Source: a virus
Lineage: Duplodnaviria; Heunggongvirae; Uroviricota; Caudoviricetes
DNA: 64,000 nt
Reading direction: 5' to 3' (one strand)
Virus record (IMG/VR): IMGVR_UViG_2595698548_000001
Coordinates: 194,140 to 258,139 of that record
Shown here: piece by piece, positions 2,019 through 37,852 of the stretch
Layout of the letters: the number at the start of each line of letters is the position of its first letter
Position numbering within the stretch: the first letter of the stretch is position 1
Position numbers and translations under genes: made by a program
Notes under the pieces: model-generated
Seen by the model: only the letters and a program-made list of their open reading frames with translations
Databases searched by the model: none
What the model was told of the DNA's origin: nothing

Positions 2019-2021
2019 GTC

Positions 2022-3889: not shown

Positions 3890-3898
3890 GGTCGTCCC

Positions 3899-4588: not shown

Positions 4589-4602
4589 GGTAAGGTGAAC
4601 AC

Positions 4603-5124
4603 ATGACAGGCTTGACAAGAGTTCCTCTGAAAATGATCGGTGCCTCAGGGCAGCCCGGCGATGACGTTCGTTTCGACGGACGCGATGTCGCTGTGGTGCC
4701 CAGCACCGAGGACACGAACGACTACGGGCTCACCAGCGGTACGTATGACTCCATCGCTGGACGCCTGACCCTGGTGCTGCGCAACGGCGCCCGCCTCGAA
4801 CTCGACGGGTTCATCACCACTGGCGATATCGGCGTAGGCCCCGCTGGTCCGACAGGCCCCGCAGGCCGCGATGGTCGCGATGGCTTGAACGGCGTAGACG
4901 GCGAGAAGGGCGCCACTGGTTGCCAAGGCCCGGCCGGTCCTCCTGGTCGTCAAGGTCCTCGCGGTGAGCAAGGCATCCCAGGCCCCACGGGCCCCACAGG
5001 CGCTACCGGCCCAACAGGCCCGGCCGGGGAAGACGGCGTTCCGCAAATCTGGATTCAAACAGAAGACCCGGTCATCAAATCCGCAGATCACATAGTCCCC
5101 GGTGCATTGTGGGTGAAGCCGTAA
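4603..5124 (+). CDS. collagen-like fibre protein (same N-terminal family)
   Basis: N-terminus [12 protein letters not shown]..., G-X-Y repeat block, C-terminal ..ALWVKP. RBS AAGGTAAGGTGA upstream. Confidence 0.8.
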
Positions 5125-5136
5125 TGGAGTGACAAC

Positions 5137-8100
5137 ATGAGTCGTCTACGCATTCGAGACGCTAAGAATGTCAAATGGATTGACATTTGCCAGAGCGAAT
5201 GGCGTGTGCGGAACCCAGCCAACACGGGCTGGATTCGTATTACTCCGGCGCAGGGCATTAAAGCTCGACACGGTAGCGAGTATTACTGGCTCGACATTGA
5301 CTGTCTTGCAGAAGAAGGGACCGAAGATTGCGGCCAAGACGAATACGGCGGCACACCTGACGGTAAGGGTGAGAACGGCACCGGTCCGGGCAAACCCAGC
5401 ACTGGAGGCGGAGACGGCTCCGGTGGAGGTGGCGATGGCGGCGGTGGAGACGGAGGCGGTAACGGCGGAGACAATGGCTCTAACAACGGCGGCTCTGGCG
5501 ATGGCGGCGGTATCGATAACGGTCCGGATAGTCCGAGCTTCAACGATGGCGACTCCGGCTCCGGTAACGGCGGTAGCGGCTGGCAAGAAGATGCTCCGTA
5601 CCCACCTGGCTTCGACCTGCCTGACTCTGATGGGGACGGTGCCGGCGACAAGGGCGATTGCATCTACCGCCCGGGTTTGAACACCTGTGAGACCAAGCAA
5701 CCTATCGTTGTGCGTCCTGACATGGACTGCGGTACGAAGCGTCCCGGATCGTGGGACTGCCCGTTCGAGTGCCCGGATTCTGTTTCTGGCTCTGGCGCTG
5801 GTATTTCCGAGTTCTACATCAACATGGGCACCGCCTCGGGTAACATCAAGTTCCCGTGGATTGCCTCCGCTGGCGCTAGCTTCGATATTTACTATCGCGG
5901 CAAGCGGGTCGCAACAACCAGCGGCCAGCGTAAAGGCACTGGCGCCTTGACCTTCGTGTTCAACCCGGTGAACAACGACCCGATGCTGTTTGTCCGCGTG
6001 CGCTCCACGTACAAGACCAACACTTGGACGTTGCAGATCAAGTGCGTTGGCGATGACGACGATGACGGCACCATCAACAACCCGCGTCCGTGCCACGGCA
6101 CCTTCGAAGTCAAGAAAGAAGGCGGGCAAGGCACCTACGAGTTCTACCATAACCTTGGGCCGACTGCTGGTCTGACGGACATCCACTATCAAATGTGGAA
6201 TCAGCCAGACAAGATGGAAGTGTTCAACCATGCGGGCGTGTTGATTGCATCGACTGGTGGTTACGTTGCAGGCGAAGCTCACCTGAAATTTCAGCACACG
6301 CCTGGCGGGTCGAACATGGTGCGCGTGCGCATTACTGCGCGTGACCCAGGTACGTCTTGGATTTACCTGATCACCTGCCCAGGTGAAGACGGTAGCGAAG
6401 ATAACCCGCGTGAGTGTTCCGACACCTCAGCAGTTAAGTCTGGCGGTGCAGGCGTCACAGATACCTTCATCGACATGGGTTCGACTGCTGGTAAAGTTGG
6501 CATCCGCTACCAGATGTGGCAGATTCCGGACAAACTGGACGTCTATCAAGAGGGTACGCTCGTTGCGACAACCGGAGGTCCTGTTACGGGAGACCACTGG
6601 CTGTACTTCGACTACGATCCGAGTCGCGGTCAGAAGATTCAGGTGCGCGTCACTGGCTCGGGCGCCACGTCGTGGTCGTTCCTGCATACGTGCCCCGGGG
6701 ATGAAGACCCGAATATCAGTGTCAACTCGCCAAGCGTGCGTGAGGGTGCTGCAGGTGAGTCTCCGCAACTGTGCTGGACCATCACAATGGACAAGCCTCA
6801 GTCGCAACCAGTGACAGTGGACTACGCAACTGGCGGCGGCAACGCAAACCCGGTCGCTGCACAAGGTCGCATCTTGGCTTCCGACCAGTTCAACAATCCG
6901 TTCATCGCCGTTGTTGATCAAGCAAACTTCGGCAAAGTTGCGTTCGATGGGGGCTTCCCCAAGTTCTACAACTCGACCTACGTTGCACCGCAGCCGCCTC
7001 CGACGGGCGCACAGGTGTTCAACACATGGTGGCGTACTGCCGGTGCTGAGTTCTACACCAGCCCGAGCGGAATTCCTAGTGGTAGTGAAGCAAACGCATG
7101 GGCGTACAGTGCTGGGTCGGGCAACATCTCGTCCACAGTGAACTCCGCGAACATCATTTCCTTCATTTCGCCCACGGCATACGATAGCTATACCTTCGAG
7201 GCTACGCTGTCTTCTTCTGCTGCGGACGACGACATGATCGGCTTGGTTGCCGCATACGCTCGCGTCGGTAGTGACAACTACCAGATCATCGCTTCTCGCC
7301 AACGCGGCGGGTTGAACGCCTTCGGTAGCAACTGGTCGCTGGCTCTGGTGAAAAACAACTCTGTCGTGAAAGTGCTGGCGTCGAACGCTGTTGGCGGGAC
7401 GGGAAACTGGAACGGAACACGCACCCGCGTTCGTGTGCAGCGCGATTGTAACCAGATCAACGTCTGGTGCTCGGCTTACGGTAGCGAGACAATCTCGGAA
7501 AGCACCTTGCTGCAGGCTGACCTGACCAGTGAAGATTTGGCAGTGTTCGGCGGTGCTGCTACTCGCTGGGGCTTCACTGCCCAGTCGCAAGAGAACGCCA
7601 CGTTCAGCAGCATCTTCGTGTCTGGTATTGGCTTGCCGCCTGCGTTTACCTACCTGAAGAACATCGCCCTGTGGTCGCGTAAACCCGGCAACAGCAAAGC
7701 GTTGATTTTGTGCGACTCGGCTACGGTTAACCAGTACAACCTGGGCACTGCCGGAATGGCCTTCGGTGTTGGTATGCCGGAGACCCTGCGTTCTGTAGGC
7801 TTCGATGTCACTATGAGGTACCTGCCGGATATGGGGAACAAGATCACTGCCGCGGACTTGGCAGACTACGGCTTCTTGGTCGTGCTGTCTACAGATCACA
7901 CCGGGGTCAACCACGCGACCGGCACCAGTGCAGCCGTCGTGGCGAACTGGGTGAAGAATGGCGGCGGTTTGTTTATCGTCACTGACCACGACGTGTTTCA
8001 AGCTACTGCGAATGCTTTGGCTGCTCCGTACAACATCGAGTTCTACGCTTCCGTCGATCGGAGCCCGGTGAGTGTTGGTCAGATCATCGCGTCGCATGGT

Positions 8101-8790
8101 GATCACCCGGCTTGGGAAGGGTTGAGTTGTAAGTCGATCCCAGCTGGCGGTAGTGAAGGTGCCATTCGCATCAAGCAAGTGCGCAGTGATTACAGCCCGA
8201 TTTCAGGTACTGTTACCTTCGCGCCTGGTGAAACGTCCAAGGAAGTGTGTGCGCCGATCATCGGCAACGACACGCAGGATGGTGACCGTACCATCAACAT
8301 GAACATCAGCAATGCGTCCAAGGGAAACATCACAGTGCCCACAGGTACTGGGACGATCATCGACGACGATAGTGCGCTGTGCCGGCAAAATCCGCAGGGC
8401 GTAGTGTATGAAAGAGCTGGTGGTGGAGATGGTGCTTACCTGATGCACGTTCAGCCTGATTACAACTGTGCGGCAGGCAACACGAAGTACCTGATGATGG
8501 CGAACTTGACGTTCCCGTACACGGGCCCGTACGTTATCACCATGACGTCCGACGATGACTTCGAGCTGTACATCGACTGTAAGAAGGTTGCGTCTGGTCC
8601 GATCGGTACTCGGCAGTACACCGTGAACATCAACGCAGGTACACGCAACGTCATCCTTCGATACTTGAACGTGCCAAACTGTACGCCTGGTTACGCTGGC
8701 TTTACCGCCCGCTACAACAACCTGATGGTGTACTCGACGCGCGCTGCTGATTGGAAGGGTCAAGCCAATAGCATTGGAGAAATCGAGTAA
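5137..8790 (+). CDS. giant multidomain adhesin-like fibre protein (Calx-beta x2, PA14-like, GATase1/ThuA-like, 3 Cys-bounded beta repeats)
   Basis: RBS GGAGTGA. Domain order: ~56-aa N-terminal domain, Gly/Asp low-complexity linker, three ~100-aa repeats bounded by Cys (..HYQMWNQPDKMEVFN.. / ..RYQMWQIPDKLDVYQ..), a Calx-beta-like motif (VTVDYATGGGNA), a GATase1/ThuA-like segment (..GGGLFIVTDHD..), a second Calx-beta-like segment (..TGTGTIIDDD), and a PA14-like C-terminus (..YTGPYVITMTSDDDFELYIDCKKV..). Confidence 0.8.
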   Translation: MSRLRIRDAKNVKWIDICQSEWRVRNPANTGWIRITPAQGIKARHGSEYYWLDIDCLAEEGTEDCGQDEYGGTPDGKGENGTGPGKPSTGGGDGSGGGGDGGGGDGGGNGGDNGSNNGGSGDGGGIDNGPDSPSFNDGDSGSGNGGSGWQEDAPYPPGFDLPDSDGDGAGDKGDCIYRPGLNTCETKQPIVVRPDMDCGTKRPGSWDCPFECPDSVSGSGAGISEFYINMGTASGNIKFPWIASAGASFDIYYRGKRVATTSGQRKGTGALTFVFNPVNNDPMLFVRVRSTYKTNTWTLQIKCVGDDDDDGTINNPRPCHGTFEVKKEGGQGTYEFYHNLGPTAGLTDIHYQMWNQPDKMEVFNHAGVLIASTGGYVAGEAHLKFQHTPGGSNMVRVRITARDPGTSWIYLITCPGEDGSEDNPRECSDTSAVKSGGAGVTDTFIDMGSTAGKVGIRYQMWQIPDKLDVYQEGTLVATTGGPVTGDHWLYFDYDPSRGQKIQVRVTGSGATSWSFLHTCPGDEDPNISVNSPSVREGAAGESPQLCWTITMDKPQSQPVTVDYATGGGNANPVAAQGRILASDQFNNPFIAVVDQANFGKVAFDGGFPKFYNSTYVAPQPPPTGAQVFNTWWRTAGAEFYTSPSGIPSGSEANAWAYSAGSGNISSTVNSANIISFISPTAYDSYTFEATLSSSAADDDMIGLVAAYARVGSDNYQIIASRQRGGLNAFGSNWSLALVKNNSVVKVLASNAVGGTGNWNGTRTRVRVQRDCNQINVWCSAYGSETISESTLLQADLTSEDLAVFGGAATRWGFTAQSQENATFSSIFVSGIGLPPAFTYLKNIALWSRKPGNSKALILCDSATVNQYNLGTAGMAFGVGMPETLRSVGFDVTMRYLPDMGNKITAADLADYGFLVVLSTDHTGVNHATGTSAAVVANWVKNGGGLFIVTDHDVFQATANALAAPYNIEFYASVDRSPVSVGQIIASHGDHPAWEGLSCKSIPAGGSEGAIRIKQVRSDYSPISGTVTFAPGETSKEVCAPIIGNDTQDGDRTINMNISNASKGNITVPTGTGTIIDDDSALCRQNPQGVVYERAGGGDGAYLMHVQPDYNCAAGNTKYLMMANLTFPYTGPYVITMTSDDDFELYIDCKKVASGPIGTRQYTVNINAGTRNVILRYLNVPNCTPGYAGFTARYNNLMVYSTRAADWKGQANSIGEIE

Positions 8791-8960
8791 TGGCTGTCAG
8801 ACTGCGAGTTCGTCAATCGACTAGCAGTCCGTGGATCGAGAACTTCGATAAGCTCGGGTGGAAGCTAAGGAATAGCTCCAATTCTGGATGGATTCAGATG
8901 CACCCGGGCAACACGAAAGTCCGCTCTTCGGACAACACACGCTGGCTCAATGTGAAGTGA
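8790..8960 (+). CDS. unannotated small protein (56 aa), paralog of the N-terminal domain of the 5137..8790 protein
   Basis: ATG overlaps the TAA of the upstream gene (TAATGG). Translation [56 protein letters not shown] aligns with MSRLRIRDAKNVKWIDICQSEWRVRNPANTGWIRITPAQGIKARHGSEYYWLDIDC. It falls below the 60-aa cutoff of the ORF track. Confidence 0.5.
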
Positions 8961-8967
8961 GGAAACT

Positions 8968-9774
8968 ATGAGTGGATTGACAAGAATCCCGCTCCCGATG
9001 ATCGATCCTGGCGCTGGCGTCGCTAACGACGAGGTGAAATTCAACGGAGAGCGCCTCGAATTGCAAAACCCGGACGACGATACCGATGTCCAGGTCACGG
9101 AAGGTGTGTACGACCCAGAGACAGGCACGTTGACTCTGCGCAAAGCAGACAACTCTGTGCTCAACATTCGCGGCTTCTTGACCAAGGCGAGTGTCGGTGT
9201 AGGCCCCACTGGCCCAACAGGTCCTCAGGGTAAGCCTGGTATCAACGGGCGCAACGGCAAAGATGGTCGCGTAGGTGATCAAGGCTGCGTGGGGCCCAAA
9301 GGTGATCCAGGCCCAGCAGGCCCGACGGGCCCAGCAGGTCCGGGTGGCGGTATCGGTGCTCAGGGCGCTACTGGCCCAACTGGTCCAACTGGTCCGACAG
9401 GCCCTGCTGGACTTGACGGTAAGGCACCAACGTTCGGCGTAGGCGAAGTGGATGCTTACGAGTTCTACGAGAATCACAGCCTTAAATGTTGGGGCCGATT
9501 CACGTCGGAAGATGCGGCAGTTTTCCAGCGCGTCGTATTCCCGGAAGCCTTCGAGCGAGACAAGCCACGGGTCATGCTTCTGCAATTCATCGACCCGAAG
9601 AGCAACGTCAAGAACGCCGTGCGCATCGACCGTATCAACAAAGGCAACGCCGAGTTGAGTGTGGATGCTTCCATGTTGGAGCAAGAATCCGATGGTGAAG
9701 GCGGCACGCGACCTGTAGCTGCTACCGGTTGGGACTTCTACTGGTTCGTCATCGGCAGCGACGCCGACGCATAA
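8968..9774 (+). CDS. collagen-like fibre protein (M-x-GLTR-I/V-P family) with globular C-terminal domain
   Basis: N-terminus [12 protein letters not shown]..., G-X-Y block, about 110-aa C-terminal domain. RBS GTGAGGAAA. Confidence 0.8.
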
Positions 9775-9784
9775 GGAGAAAGCT

Positions 9785-10237
9785 ATGGCTTTACCAGCGG
9801 CATACTACCAACTTGTCTATGATGAGAAGACAGGTGACGTGCTGTCGTTCTGGAACCCAATGAGGGGCGAGTGTCCTGACTCGCCTTACATTGAAGTTTC
9901 CCTGGAGGACCACGCTCGCGTACAGCCTGCACCGTTCAAGTTCCGCGTCATCGATAAGCGCCTGGTTGAAGTGAGCGATATACCAAAAGATGAACGTCCG
10001 AAGCGTCCAGCTGTCTCCGAAGCGATCATCGCGGGTCTTGTAATCGACGGCGTGTGCTACGCGCTCGACCCGAAAGCTCTGGCTGTGTTGACGCTCGATC
10101 TGTCCAGAGGCTCCAAGACCTGCAGGGCAATCGCCCACACTCCGACAGGAAACCAACTGGTAACCCTGCCAAAGGAAGATGCCAAGAACGTAGCCTCGAT
10201 GATAGCCGACCACTTGGTGGCTCTACATTGTGGATAA
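9785..10237 (+). CDS. hypothetical protein
   Basis: RBS AAGGAGA 6 nt upstream of the ATG. Confidence 0.6.
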   Translation: MALPAAYYQLVYDEKTGDVLSFWNPMRGECPDSPYIEVSLEDHARVQPAPFKFRVIDKRLVEVSDIPKDERPKRPAVSEAIIAGLVIDGVCYALDPKALAVLTLDLSRGSKTCRAIAHTPTGNQLVTLPKEDAKNVASMIADHLVALHCG

Positions 10238-10268
10238 TTTACTCGCAGTGTACATCGAGGTGTGAACC

Positions 10269-11090
10269 ATGTCTCTTCCTACTAGCAGGCTTATCCAGGC
10301 CGCCGTGGATCGCGGCCTGACTGTGGCCACGCCCGTTCTTCTCACCATGGACGGGCCGGAACACATTCGCGTAAACGTCATCATCAGCCACGCGGAGCCC
10401 GTCTCTGTCGTGGCTCCTTTGGACTTGCTGTGGATTAACCCTGACACAGGCACTCCGCTGCGCCGTGTCAGTCGTGCCCAGTCGCAAGACTTCGTGCATA
10501 CCTGGGAAGTCGCGGACGAGACATCGTTCTGGTTGGCTCAATCCTGGGATGAACCACGACCGAACGACCAAGACTTTCAGGAGCTCAACCGAAACATCGG
10601 CAACACGCACGGGCTGATCCTGGCCGATATCGGCGCGCTCGGTGTTGAAGGTGGAGACCTGACAGGACCATTGCGTCCACGAGTCTTGGAAGTCGGAGAC
10701 GACTACGCACCTACGGAAGCGGTACCTCGCTCGTTCGTCGAAAAGCTGACCATGGCGGCGCAAAGCCTAGCAGCTTCGGTTAGCCAACAGCTCACCAGCC
10801 TGCGTAACCAAGTTACGTCTGTGCGAAACCGCGTGACGGTAGTCGAAGACGAGTTGGAAAACATCCAGCTCGGTGACGGCACGCCACGATACAAACATGA
10901 CCAAGTGGAACCCTCACTTGAGTGGATCATCGTTCACAACCTACACGTACCGGACGTCACAGTTCGTGCCGTGCGGGAAGATGGGACGCTGATGATTCCA
11001 GCCACGGAAACAATGATCGATGAAGATACGCTGCGCCTGACGTTTGCCGAAGCTCGCCAGGGACGCGCCGTGATTCTCGGCATAAGGTGA
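10269..11090 (+). CDS. tail/fibre-associated protein with C-terminal W-x-I-x-H-N-L beta-domain
   Basis: RBS GAGGTG. The C-terminal ~65 aa (..SLEWIIVHNLHVPDVTVRAV..RAVILG) share a motif with the 13617, 15316 and 15912 proteins. Confidence 0.6.
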   Translation: MSLPTSRLIQAAVDRGLTVATPVLLTMDGPEHIRVNVIISHAEPVSVVAPLDLLWINPDTGTPLRRVSRAQSQDFVHTWEVADETSFWLAQSWDEPRPNDQDFQELNRNIGNTHGLILADIGALGVEGGDLTGPLRPRVLEVGDDYAPTEAVPRSFVEKLTMAAQSLAASVSQQLTSLRNQVTSVRNRVTVVEDELENIQLGDGTPRYKHDQVEPSLEWIIVHNLHVPDVTVRAVREDGTLMIPATETMIDEDTLRLTFAEARQGRAVILGIR

Positions 11091-11095
11091 CGAAC

Positions 11096-11956
11096 ATGAG
11101 AAGGCTTTTGGCGATAGGCTCGCTAATTTACTGCGTAATGGCAAATGCCCAAAGCCTTTTGGTTGTGCAGTCGGCAACGGTCAATGACCTGTACGGCAAC
11201 ACGATCATCGCAAAGATTCTTGAAGACCAAAACGGCAGTGTCGACCACATTGCCGTCTTCAACGCTCGGCAGTTCACGCATGATCGCTCGGCACACTCGC
11301 GGGAAATCCTGTCAAAGGTTTTGCGCACGTATGTCGAGCACTCAAAGCCGAGCGCCCTTCTGTTTCTCGGAGAGCCAATCGTGGACGTCGGGATTCCAAC
11401 TCAGTACAGCTCTGTGCTGATAGGTTCCACGTCATTTAACACAACGGCCCTCAAGGCAGCTTCCATCTACAACAAGCACTGGTCACCTGTTTACGTCATA
11501 AGCGACAACTCCGTGTTGGCGAACCTTCGCTTGCAGGAGCTGCGCCGACAACTCGATGGCATCGAGCTGGACGTGACTACGGTGTCAACGGTTATCGAGT
11601 ATCGGCAAGCGTTGCTTGACCTGCAAGATCAACCAAAAGGCACCCTGGTGCTGAACGCCTTTAGCTTGTTGGATGAGTGGCAAGACTCTGTGGGATTCGC
11701 CGAAATCGAAAACCTTCTGGTTAAGACAAATCGGCGTCACGTGGATGTAGGTATTTGTCGAAACGGGTTTAAGACGACTCTGGCTATCGGGCCGACGCCT
11801 GCAGAGGCGGCAGCTCTGGCTACTGCGCCATACTCCCAAGCATCAAACTCCCACATCAGCTCGTGTGCAAACCTGTCCCGTGTCGTACCAAAGTGGCTGG
11901 GGTTATACCGCGCAACGATGGGCAAATACGACATAGTGGAAGGCGGCAACCAATGA
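11096..11956 (+). CDS. secreted (signal-peptide) protein of unknown function
   Basis: ATG at 11096 follows RBS AAGGTGA; the track's start at 11087 is a GTG. The N-terminus MRRLLAIGSLIYCVMANAQS is a typical Sec signal. Local GC is lower than in the flanking genes. Confidence 0.6.
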   Translation: MRRLLAIGSLIYCVMANAQSLLVVQSATVNDLYGNTIIAKILEDQNGSVDHIAVFNARQFTHDRSAHSREILSKVLRTYVEHSKPSALLFLGEPIVDVGIPTQYSSVLIGSTSFNTTALKAASIYNKHWSPVYVISDNSVLANLRLQELRRQLDGIELDVTTVSTVIEYRQALLDLQDQPKGTLVLNAFSLLDEWQDSVGFAEIENLLVKTNRRHVDVGICRNGFKTTLAIGPTPAEAAALATAPYSQASNSHISSCANLSRVVPKWLGLYRATMGKYDIVEGGNQ

Positions 11957-12237
11957 TCCGACCCTCACATTCGACCATATCGCGTATCGTCATTCTTGCC
12001 CTTTTGGCTGCGGTAGCTTTCATCTTCGTGAAGTACAGCTCCCGTAGTGACAACCGCGAAGCAATCGTATACTCCTCCTTGCAGTGCGTTCAAAGCGTCT
12101 GCGTGGAGAACAAGGCTACCGGAGAGATTTGCTCCTACAGGGAGCCGAGAATTTCCGAGATTCTTATTGAGACGGACAAAGACAACGCCAACGTCAGAAA
12201 CATAAGAGTTATACCGAGCGATGACCGATGCCAATGA
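11953..12237 (+). CDS. small membrane-anchored protein with 4-Cys extracytoplasmic domain
   Basis: Internal ATG at 11953 (MIRPSHS..) overlaps the upstream stop. It has one N-terminal transmembrane segment. Confidence 0.45.
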   Translation: MIRPSHSTISRIVILALLAAVAFIFVKYSSRSDNREAIVYSSLQCVQSVCVENKATGEICSYREPRISEILIETDKDNANVRNIRVIPSDDRCQ

Positions 12238-12246
12238 GGCTGCTCA

Positions 12247-12798
12247 ATGGACTCCATAAACACCATTTTCAGTAGCCCGCTGCCTGTCGCAATTTCTGCT
12301 GTGATTGCGGTTGCGTGCCTAGCCGGCTACTGGTTCTTCGTTATCCCGCTGCTGGACGAGGTCAAAACTCTGCGTGAGACCAACTCCTCGATGCAGCAAA
12401 AGATGGGCGACGAATTTGAACTGCAAAAGGCGAACGTCCAACGCTTCATGCAAGAGTTGGCAGCCAGCCTGCAAAGTCAGCAAAACATCACCGAACTTGT
12501 CTCGACCGTAAGTTCCTTGAAGCTGGCGGTTGAACATCAAACAACCGCACTGAGTGGAAGCCTTGAACGCATGTTCGAGGACGTTCAGGAAGCATTAGAA
12601 CGTCTCACCAGTGCCCTAAATCAAACGTCTGAGACCTCGACCCGTAAACACGATGAAATCCGGCGTGAAGTCGAACGCCTGGGTCGATTGCTTGAACAAC
12701 TGACCCGCCAAGTTGCGGACATCAGTGACAAGCAGAGTCAAGTCGCTGGCGTGTTGACAGGTATGTCTATCGCTAAAAACATGAATCGAGGTCTGTAG
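12247..12798 (+). CDS. membrane-anchored coiled-coil protein
   Basis: One N-terminal transmembrane segment (residues ~13-35) followed by about 140 aa of heptad-like sequence. RBS GAGG. Confidence 0.6.
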   Translation: MDSINTIFSSPLPVAISAVIAVACLAGYWFFVIPLLDEVKTLRETNSSMQQKMGDEFELQKANVQRFMQELAASLQSQQNITELVSTVSSLKLAVEHQTTALSGSLERMFEDVQEALERLTSALNQTSETSTRKHDEIRREVERLGRLLEQLTRQVADISDKQSQVAGVLTGMSIAKNMNRGL

Positions 12799-12808
12799 GA
12801 ATACCAAC

Positions 12809-13600
12809 ATGGCCTATGTGCTCAACAACATACGGTTTCGATCTGTCAGTTCAAAGGCGCTGGAGAGGTACTACAACTCCAAGTCGTTCATCCTGAATGT
12901 CCTGATCGACGAACAAAGACAGTTCAGCCAAGTAGCCCGCGAAATCCTGCTGCTGTTTTTCAACAGCTATTCGGACTGGGCTATCAAGGTGGAGAGCCTG
13001 TTGTTGAACCGAAGCGTTTTGGAGGAGACGGACCTCAAGATCATCTTCCAGCGCTTCGGTGAAGTAGTCGAATCCAACAAGAGCATTTTCACCATTCACG
13101 GTGACGTGTTTTTGCCGCAGTTCGTAGACGTTTGGGGTGCTGTGCATAAGCACGTGCCTCTGAACTTCAAGCGCAAGGTTCGGCAAACGGTGGGCCTCTC
13201 TCAGCTTGAGGCCTATCCGCTTATCATCGATGCGTTGGTCGATGCCCTTCAATCCACGCTGTACGAGCTGTACGAAGTGGACTGCCTTCTAGGGTCTAAC
13301 CTGGTGGGCAACAAGATCAGCACCAACGCGTCCATGCAGGACAACCTGATCACGTACATTGACGATGGTGACCTGGAATATTACCGAGCCACTGGGGTCT
13401 TCATCGCCAAAGAGAGAATCACTCACTACTTGGACACGGTAATCCTGCCGGACATCGTTGTCCCTGTGGTCGTGAAAAACTACACGGAAGAAAAAATTGC
13501 GTTGAAAAACGGCTTGGTAGTTGGGGATCAGCCATTCGCACGGCTGCTAACCGACATGTTAGAAAACCCCCGCATTAAAATCGTTGAGATCGCATCCTGA
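12809..13600 (+). CDS. hypothetical cytoplasmic protein
   Basis: ATG at 12809. Its composition is lower in GC than the neighbouring fibre genes. Confidence 0.55.
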   Translation: MAYVLNNIRFRSVSSKALERYYNSKSFILNVLIDEQRQFSQVAREILLLFFNSYSDWAIKVESLLLNRSVLEETDLKIIFQRFGEVVESNKSIFTIHGDVFLPQFVDVWGAVHKHVPLNFKRKVRQTVGLSQLEAYPLIIDALVDALQSTLYELYEVDCLLGSNLVGNKISTNASMQDNLITYIDDGDLEYYRATGVFIAKERITHYLDTVILPDIVVPVVVKNYTEEKIALKNGLVVGDQPFARLLTDMLENPRIKIVEIAS

Positions 13601-13616
13601 TCCTGGAGTAATCAAC

Positions 13617-15299
13617 ATGCTCAAGAATGGCAACATCACGCTGGTTGGCGAGATTCGTGGCCTCAAGCCGCAGCGCCTGGCAGCAGACCCCACTGGTGGT
13701 GACCTCAAGGAAGGTCTGGTCTGGGTCAACACTACCGACAAAGCCCTGAAGTGGTACGACGGCACCCAGACCCTCACCATCGCCACTGGCGGCGCACTGG
13801 ACGAATACCTGTCGCTGGCCGGCGGCACCATGACCGGCCCGCTGGTTCTCGCCGCAGACGCAGCCAACCCGCTCGAAGCTACTCCGCTGCAACAAGTCGA
13901 GTCGCTGGTGGGTGCGAAGCAGGACACCATCACCGGTGCTGCTACTACCATCACCAGCGCCGATCTGACCGTCAGTCGTGCCATCGTCTCCGACGAAAAC
14001 GGCAAGGTCGCAGTATCCGCAGTCACTGCCGTCGAACTCGCCCACCTGAGCGGCGTGACCGACAACGTGCAGACGCAGATCGACCTCAAGCAGGATGATC
14101 TGGGCTACGTTCCGGTGAACAAGGCTGGCGATGCGCTGACCGGTGACCTGAACTTCGGCGGCACCAGCACGCTGAAAAACCTGGCTGCACCTGTCGATCC
14201 GACCGATGCCGTGCGTCTCATCGACATCGACAACCTGAAAGCTGACCTCGACTTCCAGGCTGACGTGCTGGCTGTCCAGCTGGATGACACGCTGGTTCCG
14301 ACCGAAGACCCGCTGCCGGATGCCCAGGTACGCTACATCGTCACTGACGCAGCCAACCTGAACGTCGCGTTCGGTACTATCGCTGGCCTGGAAGATGGCG
14401 ACATCATCCAGAAGTCCGGTGCGGACTTCGTGGTTGCCTATGATGTGTCCGTCAAAGGTCCGGGCGCTCTTGTCTGGGATCGTGGCGTCGGCAAGTTCAT
14501 GAAGTACGACGGCACCAACTGGACCGAACACGGCGGCCTGAGCGGCGTTACCGTATCGGCCGGTCTGCTCAAAGAAGGCAACACCATCAGCGTCAAGTTC
14601 GGTGCCGGTGTCGCCAACCTGCCGACTGGCGAAGTGGGTATCGATGTTCGTCCAGACAAAGGTCTGGAACTCGTCGATCCGACCACTGGTGACGCTTCGA
14701 CTGCCAGTGACGCCGTACTGGGCGTTAAAGTCGGTGCTTCCCTCGATGTCGGTGCCGGTGGCATCATCGTCAAGGCTGCCGGCGTGAACGAAACCCATCT
14801 GGCGACCAGCGTTGCCGGTCAGGGCCTCGAAGGCGGTGAAGGTACTGCGCTGACCGTCAAGCTCGACGGCACCACTCTCGTCAAGTCTGCAAACGGCCTG
14901 GCTCTGGGTGACATCAGCGCTACCTACCTGAAGCTCGACACTGCGTCGACCATCACCGCTCAAGTGGCGGTCCCGGCTCCGACTGCTGACGCCAGCATCG
15001 CCAACAAGCTGTACGCTGACCAAGGCGACCAGGCGAACGCGGATGCAATCGGCGACCTGTCGACCCGCGTCGATGCCAACCAGTTCGTGTTCGATGGCAC
15101 TGCCGGTGTTGCTCAAGACACCTACAGCATCAACCACAACCTGGGCAACAAGTACGCCGTAGTCGCTGTGTACGACGAAAGCGATGCTCAAATCCTGCCG
15201 GACACCGTCACGCTGACCGACGCCAACAACCTGACTGTCACTCTGGCGACTGCGCAGAAAGTGCGCGTCGTGATCAACGGGAAGAAGGCAGCCGCGTAA
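13617..15299 (+). CDS. tail fibre protein
   Basis: ATG at 13617 follows RBS GGAG; the track start at 13584 is a TTG inside the previous gene. The protein is rich in Gly/Ala/Thr/Val beta-repeats. Its C-terminal ..TYSINHNLGNKYAVVAVYD.. domain matches the domain recurring in four other proteins. Codon usage is strongly biased. Confidence 0.75.
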   Translation: MLKNGNITLVGEIRGLKPQRLAADPTGGDLKEGLVWVNTTDKALKWYDGTQTLTIATGGALDEYLSLAGGTMTGPLVLAADAANPLEATPLQQVESLVGAKQDTITGAATTITSADLTVSRAIVSDENGKVAVSAVTAVELAHLSGVTDNVQTQIDLKQDDLGYVPVNKAGDALTGDLNFGGTSTLKNLAAPVDPTDAVRLIDIDNLKADLDFQADVLAVQLDDTLVPTEDPLPDAQVRYIVTDAANLNVAFGTIAGLEDGDIIQKSGADFVVAYDVSVKGPGALVWDRGVGKFMKYDGTNWTEHGGLSGVTVSAGLLKEGNTISVKFGAGVANLPTGEVGIDVRPDKGLELVDPTTGDASTASDAVLGVKVGASLDVGAGGIIVKAAGVNETHLATSVAGQGLEGGEGTALTVKLDGTTLVKSANGLALGDISATYLKLDTASTITAQVAVPAPTADASIANKLYADQGDQANADAIGDLSTRVDANQFVFDGTAGVAQDTYSINHNLGNKYAVVAVYDESDAQILPDTVTLTDANNLTVTLATAQKVRVVINGKKAAA

Positions 15300-15315
15300 A
15301 CCCAAGGGGGCCTAA

Positions 15316-15915
15316 ATGCAAATCAACGGCAGCCTCGATCTGATGGGCAATGTCCTGAAGAACGTAGCCCTGGAGCCCGTTGAATCTTGGCCGCTTGAAC
15401 CAAAGCCGGGTACCTTCATCTTCAAAGGCAAGCGTATCTACATTTGCCTAGAAATCAATGATGGTGTCCCGGTCTGGTTGCCGATGAGCACTGAACTGCA
15501 CACCCACGTACACGACCAATTCATTGCGTCGTCTACGTGGGAAATCGACCATAGCCTGCAAACCGCTGGCTGTATCGTGCAGGTGCTCAGTGGCGATAAC
15601 AAAGCGATTGAGTTCGACGAGGTTGACTTCACCTTCAACCACGCCACAATTCACTTTGCCGAGCCGCAAGCTGGTCGTGCAATTCTCATCATGGGCTCCA
15701 CTGAAGGTCTTCCACGACCAACAGTCGCCTTCGAGCAGACGTTCACTGATCAACAGGTGTGGGTAATCAACCACATGCTGGGCTACCCGCCAATCGTGCG
15801 CTGCTTCGTCGGTAATCTGGAGATTCAACCCTCCAGCTTGGTACATGACGAGAACTTCACCCAGAGTATCGCCTCTTTCAGTAGTCCGATTTCGGGCAGG
15901 GTGCGGTGCGTATGA
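15316..15915 (+). CDS. fibre/baseplate-associated protein with two copies of the W-x-I-x-H-x-L beta-domain
   Basis: RBS AAGGGGG. The repeats are ..STWEIDHSLQTAGCIVQV.. and ..QVWVINHMLGYPPIVRCFV... Confidence 0.6.
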   Translation: MQINGSLDLMGNVLKNVALEPVESWPLEPKPGTFIFKGKRIYICLEINDGVPVWLPMSTELHTHVHDQFIASSTWEIDHSLQTAGCIVQVLSGDNKAIEFDEVDFTFNHATIHFAEPQAGRAILIMGSTEGLPRPTVAFEQTFTDQQVWVINHMLGYPPIVRCFVGNLEIQPSSLVHDENFTQSIASFSSPISGRVRCV

Positions 15916-16124
15916 CGAATCGGCATGAGCACGATCAACCCATTCCTTCTCAGGTTTGGGAAGTTCACCACAACCTCTTCACTCGGGCACCTGTCGTTGA
16001 CGCTTGGGTTGAGATTGAAGGCCAGATGCAAAAGATTCAGCCAATGGCTGTAAAGGTCATCGATCAAAACCAGTGCAACATCGAGTGGTCCGTGCCAAGA
16101 GCCGGTAAAGCAGGAGTCGCCTGA
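15912..16124 (+). CDS. small single-domain protein (W-x-V-x-H-N-L domain)
   Basis: ATG at 15912 overlaps the upstream TGA (ATGA). Motif ..SQVWEVHHNLFTRAPVVDAWV... Confidence 0.5.
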   Translation: MTNRHEHDQPIPSQVWEVHHNLFTRAPVVDAWVEIEGQMQKIQPMAVKVIDQNQCNIEWSVPRAGKAGVA

Positions 16125-16684
16125 TGCTTACTGATGGACTTACTCTGGCCGCTGGCTCTGGGTTGGGCATCAAGATGCTCGACGACGCCCGCCGCGGCCC
16201 AGCTTTTCCCGCAGGTGCAAACGGTGACCTGTGGGAACTCACGCAACAATCTGGAAACGACGGCCCTGGGATTTACGAGTTCTTCAACGGCTCGTGGATT
16301 CTTCGCAATCCTGCGTTCAGTGCGCTGTCGTATGATCTGTCGGGTACCGTCCTCGGACGTCCCGATCCCGGCGCGAAAGTGCTGTACTCCGTAGCAGCTC
16401 GGACGTTCTATATCCAAGCTGCGATGGCAGGCGCAGTGGCTCACGCATTGCAACCGAGCAGCACAGAGCAGGTGTACACCGTGCTCGTTACTCGGGGGCT
16501 GGAAACCATCGCCATAGGTTCGTTTACGTTCTCTCAAGGCGCCGAAGCAGGAGTGTTCACCCCGGCAAGTTCGGAACCCATCCGAATCCAACGTGGTGAC
16601 GTTATTCTGGTCACGGCACCTGATGTAATCGATCAAAACCTGGCGGACATTTCGTTCACCTTGTGTGGATACCTCTCAGTCTAA
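16124..16684 (+). CDS. hypothetical virion-associated protein
   Basis: ATG overlaps the upstream TGA. Confidence 0.55.
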   Translation: MLTDGLTLAAGSGLGIKMLDDARRGPAFPAGANGDLWELTQQSGNDGPGIYEFFNGSWILRNPAFSALSYDLSGTVLGRPDPGAKVLYSVAARTFYIQAAMAGAVAHALQPSSTEQVYTVLVTRGLETIAIGSFTFSQGAEAGVFTPASSEPIRIQRGDVILVTAPDVIDQNLADISFTLCGYLSV

Positions 16685-16696
16685 CGGAGACTTCTT

Positions 16697-17689
16697 ATGG
16701 CTGGTAAAATGATCAAGCGTACCAAACTCGCAGGTCTGGGCGCTGTCGCAACTCAACTGTTCCTCGACCTGAAAGAAGCTGGCCTGACTCAAGTCCTGCC
16801 TGCGACTGGTCAAAACTTCACGCTGGCTTCCGGTGCCGGCAAGTTCGTCATGGACTCCTCGCTGACCGTCAACCCGAAGCACGCTACCCAACCGTGGCGT
16901 ATGCTGGTCGACGTGAGCGGCGCCACTGGCGGTGCTGGTCAAATCAAGATCGCCTTCGCCAACCCGGAGCAGATCAGCAATGCCGGTGCTACCTCGTCCT
17001 TCCCTGGCAGCGTCGATACCAACGGTGCTCGCATCATGGGGCAACTGGGTGCTGCCTGGAACAAAGCATCCAGCTCGGCACTGGGCGATGTGTTCGTCAA
17101 CCGCAGCATCGCCAACCAGACCTTCGACGCCGGTACCACGATCAGCTACGTGCTGACTGCCACCGAACGCGGTATCGCCTTCTTCATCTGGGACGAAGCC
17201 AGCGATGCCTCTCCGAAGTTCTCGTGGTTCCTGGTGCAGAGCGCTGTCAACAAGGACACCGGCGCTCCGCGCGTCGATGAACTGAGCCCGATCTTCTGCG
17301 TCTACTCCTGCGACGCGCAACAGCCGCAGAAGTTCGTGATCAGCGAATCCGACATCTTCCGTCCGACCGTATCCAAGCCGGCCGACGAAGACAGCATCGA
17401 CAGCGCTGCGATCCTGAACTCCAAGCAGCAGGTCGCCATCGCCATCGGCAACAAGTACCTGGTGACCTTCCCGAATCGTCTGAACACGGATCGTTACGCC
17501 TACACCGACGAGCTGGACATGATCGCCTACACCAGCGCCGACGTTATCTCGGAAGACTCCGAAATCCCGGTGCGTCCGTACGGTGAGTCCGTGGATCGCG
17601 TGTACCGCGCGTTCAAGGCCAACGGCGCCAACAACACCGGTATGCGTCTGCTGATGCTCGTAGAAGGCGGCGGCATCGACGCGGTCTAA
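16697..17689 (+). CDS. abundant structural protein (major tail or decoration candidate)
   Basis: RBS ACGGAGA. Codons are strongly optimal (CTG, CGT, GGT, AAA), and the gene is immediately followed by a strong intrinsic terminator. Confidence 0.65.
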   Translation: MAGKMIKRTKLAGLGAVATQLFLDLKEAGLTQVLPATGQNFTLASGAGKFVMDSSLTVNPKHATQPWRMLVDVSGATGGAGQIKIAFANPEQISNAGATSSFPGSVDTNGARIMGQLGAAWNKASSSALGDVFVNRSIANQTFDAGTTISYVLTATERGIAFFIWDEASDASPKFSWFLVQSAVNKDTGAPRVDELSPIFCVYSCDAQQPQKFVISESDIFRPTVSKPADEDSIDSAAILNSKQQVAIAIGNKYLVTFPNRLNTDRYAYTDELDMIAYTSADVISEDSEIPVRPYGESVDRVYRAFKANGANNTGMRLLMLVEGGGIDAV

Positions 17690-17704
17690 GACCGGGTAAC
17701 TCCA

Positions 17705-17741
17705 AAAGGGGCTAAGGTCTAGGACTTTAGTCCCTTTTTCG
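17705..17741 (+). terminator. rho-independent terminator
   Basis: A 15-bp stem, AAAGGGGCTAAGGTC / GACTTTAGTCCCTTT (including G-U pairs), with a 3-nt loop, followed by TTCGTTT. Confidence 0.7.
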
Positions 17742-17757
17742 TTTCTGGAGCCACGAT

Positions 17758-37379: not shown

Positions 37380-37488
37380 AGTCTCTGCTAAGCTGGATGC
37401 GGTCAAGGCGCAGAAGCACTTGGCTGAAATGTTGAAGCGGGCCGCCAAACGTGCAGCTCACGACAACTACAAAGAACTGGATCACTAA
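37282..37488 (+). CDS. possible small basic protein (overlapping ORF)
   Basis: A 68-aa Lys/Arg-rich ORF that overlaps the 3' end of the 36687 gene by 98 nt; GAGGT lies upstream. It could be a frame artefact. Confidence 0.3.
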   Translation: MKIEFKVIPPGPLHQQKSNLPKGKRNRSGGKTKVSAKLDAVKAQKHLAEMLKRAAKRAAHDNYKELDH

Positions 37489-37498
37489 GGAGACTACC

Positions 37499-37795: not shown

Positions 37796-37852
37796 TTTAG
37801 GGAGGCACTAGCACAATTGCCATGGAGGCACGACGAATATGGGAGTACCAAC

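What the first reader, a model, noticed from the sequence alone, without database searches (positions are those of the whole stretch)
11096..13600. Lower-GC four-gene cassette (secreted protein, 4-Cys membrane-anchored protein, TM coiled-coil protein, cytoplasmic protein) inserted inside the tail-fibre module
Between tail gene 10269..11090 and fibre gene 13617..15299 lie four genes whose products are, respectively, Sec-signal-bearing, signal-anchored with a 4-Cys ectodomain, N-terminally membrane-anchored with a ~140-aa coiled coil, and cytoplasmic. Virion proteins do not normally carry cleavable signal peptides. Several 60-nt samples here run ~45-52% GC against 60-67% in neighbouring fibre genes. 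This looks like a moron or accessory island. Candidate roles are superinfection exclusion, envelope remodelling, or an uncharacterised membrane system co-transcribed with late genes. It may equally be a periplasm-acting tail accessory.
Basis: partly seen in the sequence, partly recalled or inferred. Interest (0 to 1): 0.6.

Follow-up and report, generated by a model that had tools for sequence, protein, structure and literature searches.

The report
Conserved envelope-spanning four-gene phage module
Four adjacent late genes of the giant Pseudomonas phage PaBG are a conserved module kept at the same spot in its whole phage family, not a foreign insert. They appear to build a complex across the host's inner membrane, including a secreted nutrient-sensor-like protein, whose function is unknown and may be sensing or control of lysis.

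Summary
The window is the last 64 kb of Pseudomonas jumbo phage PaBG; the finding covers PaBG_00253–00256. There are four tightly packed + strand genes: a Sec-signal protein, a signal-anchored 4-Cys protein, a TM plus heptad-periodic helical protein, and a soluble protein. Together they form the lowest-GC 2.5 kb of the window (0.517 vs 0.556).

The "inserted moron" reading fails on three counts:
- GC3 and codon usage are ordinary.
- No promoter or terminator flanks the cassette.
- The same four genes, in the same order, lie just upstream of the gp257-like virion gene in Lu11, HRDY3, Erwinia Y3 and Yoloswag, Dickeya JA29 and metagenomic relatives. In the three enterobacterial phages the gp252-like gene is also upstream. 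The GC dip recurs in Lu11 and Y3.

New findings:
- gp256, labelled "ABC transporter", is a confidently modelled helical-bundle plus α/β protein with no known structural relative.
- The gp255–gp256 pair alone extends to Vibrio and Ralstonia jumbo phages.

Best reading: a phage-specific complex spanning the inner membrane, with a periplasmic input (gp253 and gp254) and a cytoplasmic core (gp255 and gp256). It probably senses an envelope cue and regulates a late step such as lysis timing. The function is inferred, not shown.

The parts
11096..11956 (+). gp253 (PaBG_00253, 286 aa): secreted protein with a type-I periplasmic-binding-protein fold. The signal peptide is about aa 1–18 (nt 11096–11149, cleavage ANA|QS). 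Two Cys (C221, C257) are invariant.
11953..12237 (+). gp254 (PaBG_00254, 94 aa): bitopic membrane protein, predicted N-in/C-out, with a roughly 65-aa periplasmic domain carrying four invariant Cys (C45, C50, C60, C93). Its start overlaps the gp253 stop by 4 nt.
   Evidence: Hydropathy and charge bias: K/R in the N-flank of 5 of 6 homologues and no D/E there. Alignment invariants. ATGA overlap. Homologues are present but unannotated in Lu11, HRDY3 and Y3.
12247..12798 (+). gp255 (PaBG_00255, 183 aa): N-terminal membrane anchor followed by about 145 aa of heptad-periodic helix, ending in the conserved motif SDKQSQVxGxxLGM. Topology is probably N-out/C-in but is not established.
   Evidence: phrog_28931 matches full length at 4.8e-104. 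Other family hits are coiled-coil noise. The 3.5-residue periodicity gives z 4.0 in PaBG, 5.0 in Y3 and 6.5 in RsoM2USA. N-flanks contain no K/R in 7 of 8 homologues. Alignment.
12809..13600 (+). gp256 (PaBG_00256, 263 aa): soluble, probably cytoplasmic, two-domain protein with a six-helix bundle (aa 8–161) and a small α/β domain (aa 180–262). It is the most conserved member and marks the family. The RefSeq label 'ABC transporter' is unsupported.
10269..11090 (+). Upstream flank: gp252, a fibre-like late protein that shares a C-terminal domain with gp257 and gp258. It is mislabelled 'HNH endonuclease' in RefSeq. It is the conserved upstream neighbour in Y3, JA29 and Yoloswag.
   Evidence: PHROG cross-hits. 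No HNH Pfam hit. Synteny.
13617..15299 (+). Downstream flank: gp257, a virion tail or fibre protein and the conserved downstream neighbour of the cassette in every genome examined.
   Evidence: PaBG virion MS band 6 (PMC7412058 Table 1). The Lu11_0250 homologue matches at 6e-23. Synteny.
17704..17738 (+). First strong intrinsic-terminator-like hairpin downstream (16-bp stem followed by a T-rich tail). It is the probable end of the late transcription unit that contains the cassette.

Best explanation
**Anatomy (well supported).** gp253–gp256 form a conserved, phage-specific late-gene module whose products sit on both sides of the host inner membrane.
- gp253 is exported and folds as a type-I periplasmic binding protein, i.e. 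a ligand- or partner-binding clamp.
- gp254 is anchored N-in and displays a small, probably disulfide-bonded 4-Cys domain in the periplasm.
- gp255 is a second single-pass anchor carrying a long heptad-periodic helical domain, most likely on the cytoplasmic side.
- gp256 is a soluble helical-bundle plus α/β protein of an otherwise unknown family.

**Mechanism (inferred).** gp255 and gp256 form an ancient cytoplasm-facing core that also exists alone in Vibrio and Ralstonia jumbo phages. In the PaBG/Lu11/Y3 lineage this core gained a periplasmic input made of gp253 docked on gp254. The complex would report a periplasmic cue, either a small molecule or the state of the envelope, across the membrane. 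That signal would tune a late event at the envelope. The most plausible target is the timing of holin-dependent lysis, by analogy with T4 T–RI–RIII and phiKZ gp142–gp143.

**What it is not.** It is neither a horizontally acquired moron nor an ABC transporter.
For: **Shown here.**
- Identity and coordinates.
- Signal peptide and PBP fold of gp253.
- TM segments and charge bias.
- Four invariant Cys in gp254.
- Heptad periodicity in gp255.
- Confident but orphan fold of gp256.
- Four-gene synteny in six phage lineages plus metagenomes.
- Two-gene core in Vibrio SRILMA, Ralstonia RsoM2USA and related contigs.
- Normal GC3 and codon usage. The GC dip travels with the cassette.
- No flanking promoter or terminator, and tight or overlapping gene junctions.
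- Phage-only distribution.

**Supporting the lysis-control inference.**
- In Lu11 and HRDY3 the cassette lies about 1.2 kb upstream of the lysis cassette, which comprises a TM protein, a 3-TMD holin-like protein, a u-spanin-like protein and an M15 endolysin. The gap holds the gp257-like gene and a 57-aa ORF.
- In Vibrio-type genomes the core pair is about 3 kb from a GH19 endolysin.
- Holins regulated by soluble periplasmic and cytoplasmic partners are established for T4 and phiKZ (PMC12894885).
- SBP-to-membrane-transducer signalling (LuxP–LuxQ, TorT–TorS, ChvE–VirA, MBP–Tar) is established knowledge.
Against: - There is no experimental or homology evidence for function, and no recognisable output domain.
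- Physical interaction among the four proteins is untested.
- The topology of gp255 rests on a weak charge bias. If its helical domain is periplasmic, the model changes.
- PaBG already has a complete canonical lysis set 24 kb downstream. In PaBG, Y3, JA29 and Yoloswag no lysis gene is annotated within the roughly 4–6 kb examined downstream of the cassette; in PaBG the lysis set is 24 kb away.
- In RsoM2USA-type genomes the nearby peptidoglycan hydrolase is a PAAR-associated tail lysin, not an endolysin. The 'near lysis genes' pattern is therefore ambiguous.
- The core pair works without any periplasmic partner in some phages.
- The gp253 model is only moderately confident (pLDDT 76.7), and no ligand-binding residues could be mapped.
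Confidence: 0.4

Rival explanations
1. **Superinfection exclusion or receptor masking.** Secreted gp253, tethered by gp254, binds a host envelope component used for adsorption or DNA entry. This would block later-arriving phages or stop progeny from being lost on cell debris, as T5 Llp, T4 Imm/Sp or Cor do.
For: - The cassette has periplasmic and membrane components and lies among receptor-binding fibre genes, as llp lies next to pb5 and cor lies near tail genes (established knowledge).
- By pairwise BLAST, only the C-terminal half of gp253 aligns with Lu11 (37% identity over aa 127–278). This is compatible with a host-facing, faster-evolving N-lobe.
Against: - The cassette is embedded in a late structural operon with no promoter of its own, whereas exclusion genes act early.
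- It is conserved across phages of Pseudomonas aeruginosa, P. putida, Erwinia and Dickeya, which have different fibres.
- Exclusion needs no cytoplasmic partner, yet the strictly conserved core is the gp255–gp256 pair.
- No PADLOC or PHROG exclusion family matched.
Confidence: 0.18
2. **Morphogenetic factor.** The complex is a membrane-anchored platform or chaperone for assembly of the tail fibres or baseplate encoded around it, and is not itself part of the virion.
For: - Synteny is fixed between gp252-like and gp257-like fibre genes in Y3, JA29 and Yoloswag, as in PaBG.
- The genes are co-transcribed with late genes.
- In RsoM2USA-type genomes the core pair is 1–4 kb from PAAR and tail-lysin genes.
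- Coiled-coil fibre chaperones such as T4 gp57A are established knowledge.
Against: - Tail assembly is cytoplasmic, so an exported PBP-fold protein and a periplasmic 4-Cys domain have no obvious role in it.
- In Vibrio phages the pair sits among small non-structural genes.
- No similarity to known assembly chaperones was found.
Confidence: 0.15
3. **Nutrient-uptake auxiliary gene.** gp253 is a solute-binding protein that feeds a host ABC importer, as cyanophage PstS does, to boost uptake of an amino acid or similar solute during infection.
For: - The closest structural matches are amino-acid-binding SBPs of the PF04392 type.
- gp253 has an export signal.
- A weak profile link to PF04392 exists.
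Against: - There is no detectable sequence similarity to any cellular SBP. gp253 has no Pfam hit, the profile finds no PDB sequence, and only 64 mostly unannotated representatives exist among 1.84 billion proteins.
- No permease or ATPase gene is adjacent.
- gp253 is co-conserved with three phage-specific partners.
- Its late timing gives little time for uptake to matter.
Confidence: 0.07
4. **Horizontally acquired moron or accessory island specific to PaBG**.
For: The cassette is the lowest-GC 2.5-kb stretch of the window. Three of its four genes are among the four lowest-GC genes of 79.
Against: - GC3 and the CAI-like index fall within the normal range.
- The cassette is conserved in order and position across six lineages at 22–41% identity.
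- The dip recurs in genomes of different GC.
- No promoter or terminator of its own.
- No cellular homologues.
Confidence: 0.03
5. **Alternative lysis effectors.** gp255 is an i-spanin-like or class-III holin-like protein, with gp254 or gp253 as its periplasmic partner.
For: - gp255 has the gross i-spanin or T-holin layout: an N-terminal TMD plus a long helical C-terminal domain.
- T4 gene t lies at the end of the fibre gene cluster (established knowledge).
- The cassette is close to the lysis genes in Lu11 and HRDY3.
Against: - No lipobox-bearing o-spanin partner is present. The Cys13 in the gp253 signal peptide is not conserved.
- PaBG and Lu11 already encode a 3-TMD holin-like protein, a u-spanin-like lipoprotein with a C-terminal TMD, and an endolysin.
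- The charge bias favours a cytoplasmic location for the helical domain.
- No holin or spanin family hit.
Confidence: 0.07

Closest known systems
PF04392-type ABC substrate-binding proteins (C. difficile CD0873, PDB 6hni; S. pneumoniae L-Trp-binding protein, PDB 3lft), within the wider type-I periplasmic binding protein / LacI ligand-domain fold
   Different: - gp253 itself has no sequence-level family membership.
- No ABC permease or ATPase gene is present.
- It is encoded only in jumbo-phage genomes and is co-conserved with two bitopic proteins and a cytoplasmic protein.
- Its ligand, if any, is unknown.
SBP-dependent transmembrane sensors (LuxP–LuxQ, TorT–TorS, ChvE–VirA, MBP–Tar)
   Same: The logic is the same: a soluble periplasmic binding protein docks on the periplasmic part of a membrane protein, which relays to a helical cytoplasmic part. 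This is established knowledge; the resemblance to the cassette is inferred.
   Different: - There is no kinase, HAMP, MCP or other recognisable signalling domain.
- The membrane component is split into two single-pass proteins.
- The output protein gp256 has no known relatives.
Phage lysis-timing systems: T4 holin T with periplasmic RI and cytoplasmic RIII; phiKZ class-III holin gp142 with cytoplasmic regulator gp143 (PMC12894885)
   Same: - The compartment layout matches: a soluble periplasmic protein, single-pass membrane protein(s) and a soluble cytoplasmic protein.
- Expression is late.
- T4 gene t also sits at the end of the tail-fibre cluster.
- In Lu11 and HRDY3 the cassette is about 1.2 kb upstream of the lysis genes.
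   Different: - No sequence or fold similarity to T, RI, RIII, gp142 or gp143 was detected.
- A separate 3-TMD holin candidate exists.
- No functional data are available.
Cyanophage PstS (phage-encoded phosphate-binding protein, an auxiliary metabolic gene)
   Same: It is a phage-encoded, exported solute-binding-fold protein (established knowledge).
   Different: PstS is a recent, clearly host-derived type-II SBP that uses the host PstCAB transporter. gp253 is a type-I fold with no detectable cellular homologues and has dedicated phage partners.
Envelope-acting exclusion proteins encoded near tail genes (T5 Llp, T4 Imm/Sp, Cor)
   Same: They have signal peptides or membrane anchors, and Llp and Cor are encoded near receptor-binding genes (established knowledge).
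   Different: Those are single small proteins, early or lysogenic genes, and sporadic and receptor-specific. The cassette is a four-gene, late, family-wide module with a cytoplasmic component.

Membership tests
ABC transporter substrate-binding protein (Pfam PF04392 ABC_sub_bind / type-I PBP), tested for gp253 | Two-lobed α/β periplasmic-binding-protein fold | tested here: met
ABC transporter substrate-binding protein (Pfam PF04392 ABC_sub_bind / type-I PBP), tested for gp253 | Export signal (Sec signal peptide or lipoprotein signal) | tested here: met
   The N-terminus MRRLLAIGSLIYCVMANA|QS is conserved in the family. Conserved signal-like N-termini also appear in the extended ORFs of Y3, Yoloswag and JA29. 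No SignalP run was possible.
ABC transporter substrate-binding protein (Pfam PF04392 ABC_sub_bind / type-I PBP), tested for gp253 | Sequence match to the family model above its curated threshold | tested here: not met
   gp253 has no Pfam hit at E ≤ 0.1. Its profile finds no PDB sequence at E ≤ 10. The only link is transitive: remote homologue P0165 scores 28.7 bits against a 25.9-bit cutoff for PF04392, and hhalign of A2 against P0165 gives 93% probability.
ABC transporter substrate-binding protein (Pfam PF04392 ABC_sub_bind / type-I PBP), tested for gp253 | Cognate ABC permease and ATPase genes in the same operon | tested here: not met
   The neighbours are gp254 (94-aa single-pass), gp255 (single-pass plus helical domain) and gp256 (helical bundle). 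None matches an ABC_tran or permease family.
ABC transporter substrate-binding protein (Pfam PF04392 ABC_sub_bind / type-I PBP), tested for gp253 | Binds a small-molecule ligand in the inter-lobe cleft | not testable with these tools
ABC transporter (RefSeq and PHROG label on gp256) | Nucleotide-binding domain (Walker A/B, ABC signature) or a multi-pass permease domain | tested here: not met
   No Pfam or NCBIfam hit. No TM segment. The confident model is a six-helix bundle plus a small α/β domain, with only generic bundle matches in PDB.
Moron / horizontally acquired accessory island | Sporadic presence among related phages | tested here: not met
   The cassette is present in the same order, directly upstream of the gp257-like gene, in Lu11, HRDY3, Y3, Yoloswag, JA29 and metagenomic contigs.
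Moron / horizontally acquired accessory island | Own promoter and terminator, transcribed independently of neighbours | tested here: not met
   No consensus promoter or terminator flanks the cassette. The first strong terminator is at 17704–17738. Junctions are −4 to 16 nt. The scan covers only σ70-type promoters, and phage late promoters are unknown.
Moron / horizontally acquired accessory island | Atypical composition or codon usage relative to the genome | tested here: inconclusive
   Total GC is the lowest of the window. However, GC3 and the CAI-like index are ordinary, and the dip recurs in Lu11 and Y3. This points to amino-acid composition rather than foreign origin.
Two-component spanin (Rz/Rz1-type) | i-spanin: N-terminal TMD with a periplasmic coiled-coil domain | tested here: inconclusive
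   gp255 has a TMD plus a heptad-periodic helix. The charge bias suggests the helix is cytoplasmic, and topology has not been tested experimentally.
Two-component spanin (Rz/Rz1-type) | o-spanin: small outer-membrane lipoprotein with a lipobox, embedded in or adjacent to the i-spanin gene | tested here: not met
   No lipobox is present in gp253, gp254 or gp256. Cys13 of gp253 is not conserved. PaBG has a separate u-spanin-like gene with the lipobox LTGC at 38230–38700.
T4-type lysis-inhibition system (holin T, RI, RIII) | Sequence or fold homology to T, RI or RIII | tested here: not met
T4-type lysis-inhibition system (holin T, RI, RIII) | Delays holin triggering in response to a periplasmic signal | not testable with these tools
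   This requires lysis-curve experiments with knockouts or co-expression with the PaBG holin candidate.
Anti-phage defence or superinfection-exclusion families (PADLOC) | Match to a known defence or exclusion protein model | tested here: not met
   No hits for gp253, gp254 or gp256. gp255 gives only weak coiled-coil noise, with E ≥ 7e-4 to JetC, LmuB and similar.

The most novel reading that the evidence does not exclude
The cassette is a previously unrecognised class of phage-encoded signalling device that spans the inner membrane. A dedicated, highly diverged periplasmic binding protein (gp253) captures a small-molecule or envelope-damage cue. It passes the signal through two single-pass proteins to an orphan-fold cytoplasmic effector (gp256). 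This would let a strictly lytic jumbo phage adjust lysis timing or another late decision to conditions outside the cell. If so, it would be a solute-binding-protein-coupled sensor that is viral in origin and has no cellular counterpart.
Probability: 0.2. Interest if true: 0.8.

Novelty: new variant of a known kind. Interest (0 to 1): 0.5.

Why it matters
Lytic phages are rarely credited with sensing the environment outside the infected cell, apart from T4 lysis inhibition and a few quorum-sensing cases. Here a whole family of jumbo phages, infecting Pseudomonas, Erwinia and Dickeya, keeps an exported binding-protein fold wired to membrane and cytoplasmic partners that have no cellular relatives.

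If the module senses something, it offers a tractable four-gene system for asking how giant phages time lysis or read envelope status. It would also give a function to an orphan protein family (gp256) that marks several jumbo-phage lineages.

Practically, the work corrects several database annotations:
- 'ABC transporter' on gp256 and 'HNH endonuclease' on gp252 are unsupported.
- The 94-aa gene is missing from three genomes.
- The start codons of the binding-protein gene are truncated in three genomes.

It also shows that a local GC dip alone is a poor indicator of a moron.

Tried and rejected
- **Family scans.** Pfam, NCBIfam, PADLOC and PHROG scans of all four proteins gave only PHROG families of unknown function, misleading names ('ABC transporter', 'HNH endonuclease') and coiled-coil noise for gp255.
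- **PDB sequence searches.** Profile searches found nothing for gp253 and only noise for gp256.
- **Virion proteomics.** PaBG has only a 14-band MALDI proteome. The Y3 paper is not held. Other searches found none.
- **A corrected assumption.** I first assumed Lu11_0250 was a gp261 homologue. Direct comparison rejected this and showed it is gp257-like.
- **Lysis-cassette hypothesis.** The idea that the cassette is PaBG's own lysis cassette was rejected, because a complete holin-like, u-spanin-like and endolysin set lies at 37853–39167.
- **Proximity to peptidoglycan hydrolases.** This was examined as a functional clue and found ambiguous: the neighbour is an endolysin in Lu11-type and Vibrio-type genomes, a PAAR-linked tail lysin in RsoM2USA-type genomes, and 24 kb away in PaBG.
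- **Technical limit.** Most loci were not synced to the Python sandbox, so comparisons used the built-in tools.


Full report
**Source and coordinates.** Window bases 9000–16000 are 100% identical to Pseudomonas jumbo phage PaBG (KF147891 / NC_022096, 258,139 bp, Baikalvirus). Window position equals record position minus 194,139. The finding corresponds to PaBG_00253–00256, all annotated as hypothetical. The exceptions are 00256, labelled 'putative membrane protein' in GenBank and 'ABC transporter' in RefSeq, and the upstream gp252, labelled 'HNH endonuclease' in RefSeq. The downstream gene gp257 is one of only 14 proteins identified in the published PaBG virion proteome, together with gp261 and gp263. 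None of gp253–256 is listed, but that gel-band MALDI analysis detects only abundant proteins (PMC7412058 Table 1).

**Checking the gene products.** The four ORFs are real and tightly packed on the + strand. Junctions are 5 nt, a 4-nt ATGA overlap, 9 nt, 10 nt and 16 nt, each with a Shine-Dalgarno-like purine run.
- gp253 begins MRRLLAIGSLIYCVMANA|QS, a classic n-h-c signal peptide. It is conserved in every full-length homologue.
- gp254 has one strong TM segment. K/R residues lie on its N-terminal side in 5 of 6 homologues. Four Cys (C45, C50, C60, C93) are invariant in the 5 aligned homologues and present in all 7 sequences read. This argues for an N-in/C-out protein with a disulfide-bonded periplasmic domain.
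- gp255 has an N-terminal hydrophobic anchor whose N-flank lacks K/R in 7 of 8 homologues. About 145 residues follow, with hydrophobicity peaking at a period of 3.5. The signal gives z = 4.0 in PaBG, 5.0 in Y3 and 6.5 in RsoM2USA, and is weaker in Lu11.
- gp256 has no hydrophobic segment.

**Checking the GC dip.** The cassette is the lowest-GC 2.5-kb stretch of the window: 0.517 against 0.556 ± 0.014, with 0.1% of sliding windows as low. Three of its genes rank 1st, 3rd and 4th lowest of 79 genes. The quoted contrast is inflated, however, because gp257 and gp261 are the two highest-GC3, highest-CAI genes in the window.

**Is it an inserted moron? No, on four lines of evidence.**
1. Third-position GC is 0.631, 0.621, 0.582 and 0.701 for the four genes, against 0.652 ± 0.061 for all genes. 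The deficit lies in codon positions 1 and 2 (gp256 GC2 = 0.29), which reflects amino-acid composition.
2. No σ70-like promoter or intrinsic terminator flanks the cassette. The first strong terminator on the + strand is at 17704–17738, after gp261.
3. The same four genes, in the same order, occur in many relatives:
   - P. putida phage Lu11 and Pseudomonas phage HRDY3.
   - Erwinia phage Y3 and Erwinia phage Yoloswag.
   - Dickeya phage JA29.
   - Metagenomic contigs of 45–189 kb.
   - tblastn also finds the SBP-like gene in 32 phage records (25 Erwinia, 5 Pseudomonas, 2 Dickeya AD1).
   - In Y3, JA29 and Yoloswag the flanks match PaBG: ILEI-domain protein, small ORF, two fibre genes, gp252-like gene, cassette, gp257-like virion protein.
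   - In Lu11 and HRDY3 the downstream neighbour is also gp257-like.
4. The 3–4-point GC dip follows the cassette in Lu11 (0.474 against about 0.50) and in Y3 (0.444 against about 0.475). It therefore belongs to the encoded proteins, not to a foreign origin.

Identities to PaBG are 22–41%, so the arrangement is old. The proteomics half could not be tested.

At the sequence level gp253 is an orphan:
- It has no Pfam hit.
- Its profile finds no PDB sequence.
- An exhaustive profile search of 1.84 billion representatives finds only 64 proteins.

**Modularity.** tblastn with gp256 finds 43 phage records. Besides the PaBG/Lu11/Erwinia/Dickeya clade, they include Vibrio phages of about 190–195 kb, Ralstonia RsoM2USA, a Yersinia phage and a Salmonella phage. 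In the Vibrio and Ralstonia genomes, and in related metagenomic contigs, only a TM plus helical protein accompanies the gp256 homologue. It sits upstream in Vibrio and downstream in RsoM2USA-type genomes. No SBP-like or 4-Cys gene is present. The gp255–gp256 pair is thus the ancient core, and gp253–gp254 is a periplasmic addition specific to the PaBG/Lu11/Y3 lineage. Because gp256 is soluble and always travels with gp255, I infer that the helical domain of gp255 is cytoplasmic. The charge bias agrees but is weak.

**Mechanism.** Shown or directly read from sequence: the export of gp253 and its PBP fold, the two single-pass anchors, the conserved Cys pattern, the orphan soluble partner, the late-operon context and the family-wide conservation. 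The rest is inferred. I propose that gp253 docks on the gp254 ectodomain, that the two TM helices pair, and that the state of the periplasmic side is relayed to gp255 and gp256. A PBP clamp coupled to a membrane transducer is the logic of LuxP–LuxQ, TorT–TorS, ChvE–VirA and MBP–Tar (established knowledge).

I think lysis timing is the most likely output, for these reasons:
- A strictly lytic phage has few reasons to conserve periplasmic proteins other than lysis, its regulation, or exclusion.
- T4 (T, RI, RIII) and phiKZ (gp142, gp143) show that holins are tuned by soluble partners on either side of the membrane (PMC12894885).
- T4 gene t lies at the end of the fibre cluster (established knowledge).
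- In Lu11 and HRDY3 the cassette is about 1.2 kb upstream of the lysis cassette; the gap holds the gp257-like gene and a 57-aa ORF.
- In Vibrio-type genomes the core pair is about 3 kb from a GH19 endolysin.

The evidence against is real:
- PaBG has a complete lysis set 24 kb away, comprising a 3-TMD holin-like protein, a u-spanin-like protein and an M15 endolysin.
- In RsoM2USA-type genomes the nearby hydrolase is a PAAR-linked tail lysin.
- There is no homology to any known lysis regulator.

I give the anatomical description about 0.85 confidence and the sensing/regulatory mechanism about 0.3–0.4. Within that, lysis timing specifically gets about 0.2–0.25.

**Rivals.**
- Superinfection exclusion or receptor masking (0.18) fits the periplasmic parts and the position near fibre genes. 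It fits poorly with late expression, conservation across hosts, and the cytoplasmic core.
- A membrane-anchored fibre or baseplate assembly factor (0.15) fits the synteny but not the exported PBP.
- A PstS-like uptake gene (0.07) fits the fold, but not the absence of cellular homologues or the dedicated partners.
- A moron (0.03) is contradicted by synteny.
- A spanin or holin role (0.07) is made unnecessary by the canonical set and lacks a lipoprotein partner.

**Novelty.** The genes are deposited but uncharacterised. No paper in the searchable library discusses them. An exported, sequence-orphan PBP-fold protein wired to two single-pass proteins and an orphan-fold cytoplasmic protein, conserved across a jumbo-phage family, is not a described system. 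Without functional data I rate it a new variant of known kinds (SBP-coupled membrane signalling; phage envelope and lysis regulators) rather than categorically new. Interest is moderate at 0.5. The moron story is wrong, but what replaces it is a clean, testable four-gene unknown.

Noticed in passing
window 37451-39167: PaBG's canonical lysis cassette has four parts: a 98–114-aa TM protein (37451–37795), a 126-aa holin-like protein with about three TMDs (37853–38233), a 156-aa protein (38230–38700) and an M15 endolysin (38700–39167). The 156-aa protein has the lipobox LTGC and a C-terminal TMD, the layout of a unimolecular spanin, and is labelled only 'lipoprotein'.
   Followed up: partly
L003 (Lu11) 11018-12553: Lu11 has the homologous lysis set immediately after its gp257-like gene (holin-like 38% identity, u-spanin-like 30%). 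The annotated Lu11_0254 starts at 11818 and truncates the u-spanin-like ORF 11635–12081, which begins MRTLILLALLFLPAC with a lipobox.
   Followed up: partly
L003 8205-8489; L004 8228-8515; L006 5202-5486: The 94–95-aa 4-Cys membrane protein (gp254 homologue) is present but not annotated in the Lu11, HRDY3 and Erwinia Y3 records. Each record shows an apparent intergenic gap at that spot.
   Followed up: yes
L006 4113-5138; L011 2297-3193; L012 2145-3155: The SBP-like gene is annotated with truncated starts in Y3, JA29 and Yoloswag. The extended ORFs overlap the 3' end of the upstream gene by about 130–150 nt in another frame. They carry a conserved signal-peptide-like segment (…FGACLW…YA| or …RA|).
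   Followed up: partly
window 10269-11090, 13617-15299, 15316-15915: gp252, gp257 and gp258 share a roughly 60-aa C-terminal domain (reciprocal weak hits among phrog_24148, phrog_16122 and phrog_21918). They look like paralogous fibre-like proteins. The RefSeq 'HNH endonuclease' name for gp252 is a PHROG label with no Pfam HNH match.
   Followed up: partly
L013, L015, L016 (metagenomic contigs) and L008 (RsoM2USA) around 1300-12500: In RsoM2USA-type jumbo phages the gp256-like and TM-helical pair sits in a conserved block: PD-(D/E)XK nuclease, a small ORF, and an approximately 456–515-aa ORF (RimK-like ATP-grasp in L013/L016; no Pfam hit in L015; replaced by a 244-aa acidic protein in RsoM2USA), the pair, and a protein of about 215 aa. 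This block lies 1–4 kb from a PAAR protein and an M23 plus GH108/GH19 tail lysin on the opposite strand.
   Followed up: no
window 17704-17738: The + strand carries a strong intrinsic-terminator-like hairpin (16-bp stem) just after gp261. It is the only convincing terminator in 8500–18000 and probably marks the end of a long late transcription unit.
   Followed up: no
window ~44569-45408 (record 238708-239547, minus strand): PaBG encodes a protein annotated as an HflK-like FtsH-protease regulator (SPFH family). This is another inner-membrane-associated phage product, seen only in the annotation table.
   Followed up: no
L007 (Vibrio phage SRILMA) 3490-10180: The gp255/gp256-like pair is embedded in a long run of small (about 90–120 aa) ORFs. 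Several of them end in similar C-terminal motifs (…YPEMFI, …YPEEFI, …EYLI), which suggests a paralogous family of unknown function.
   Followed up: no
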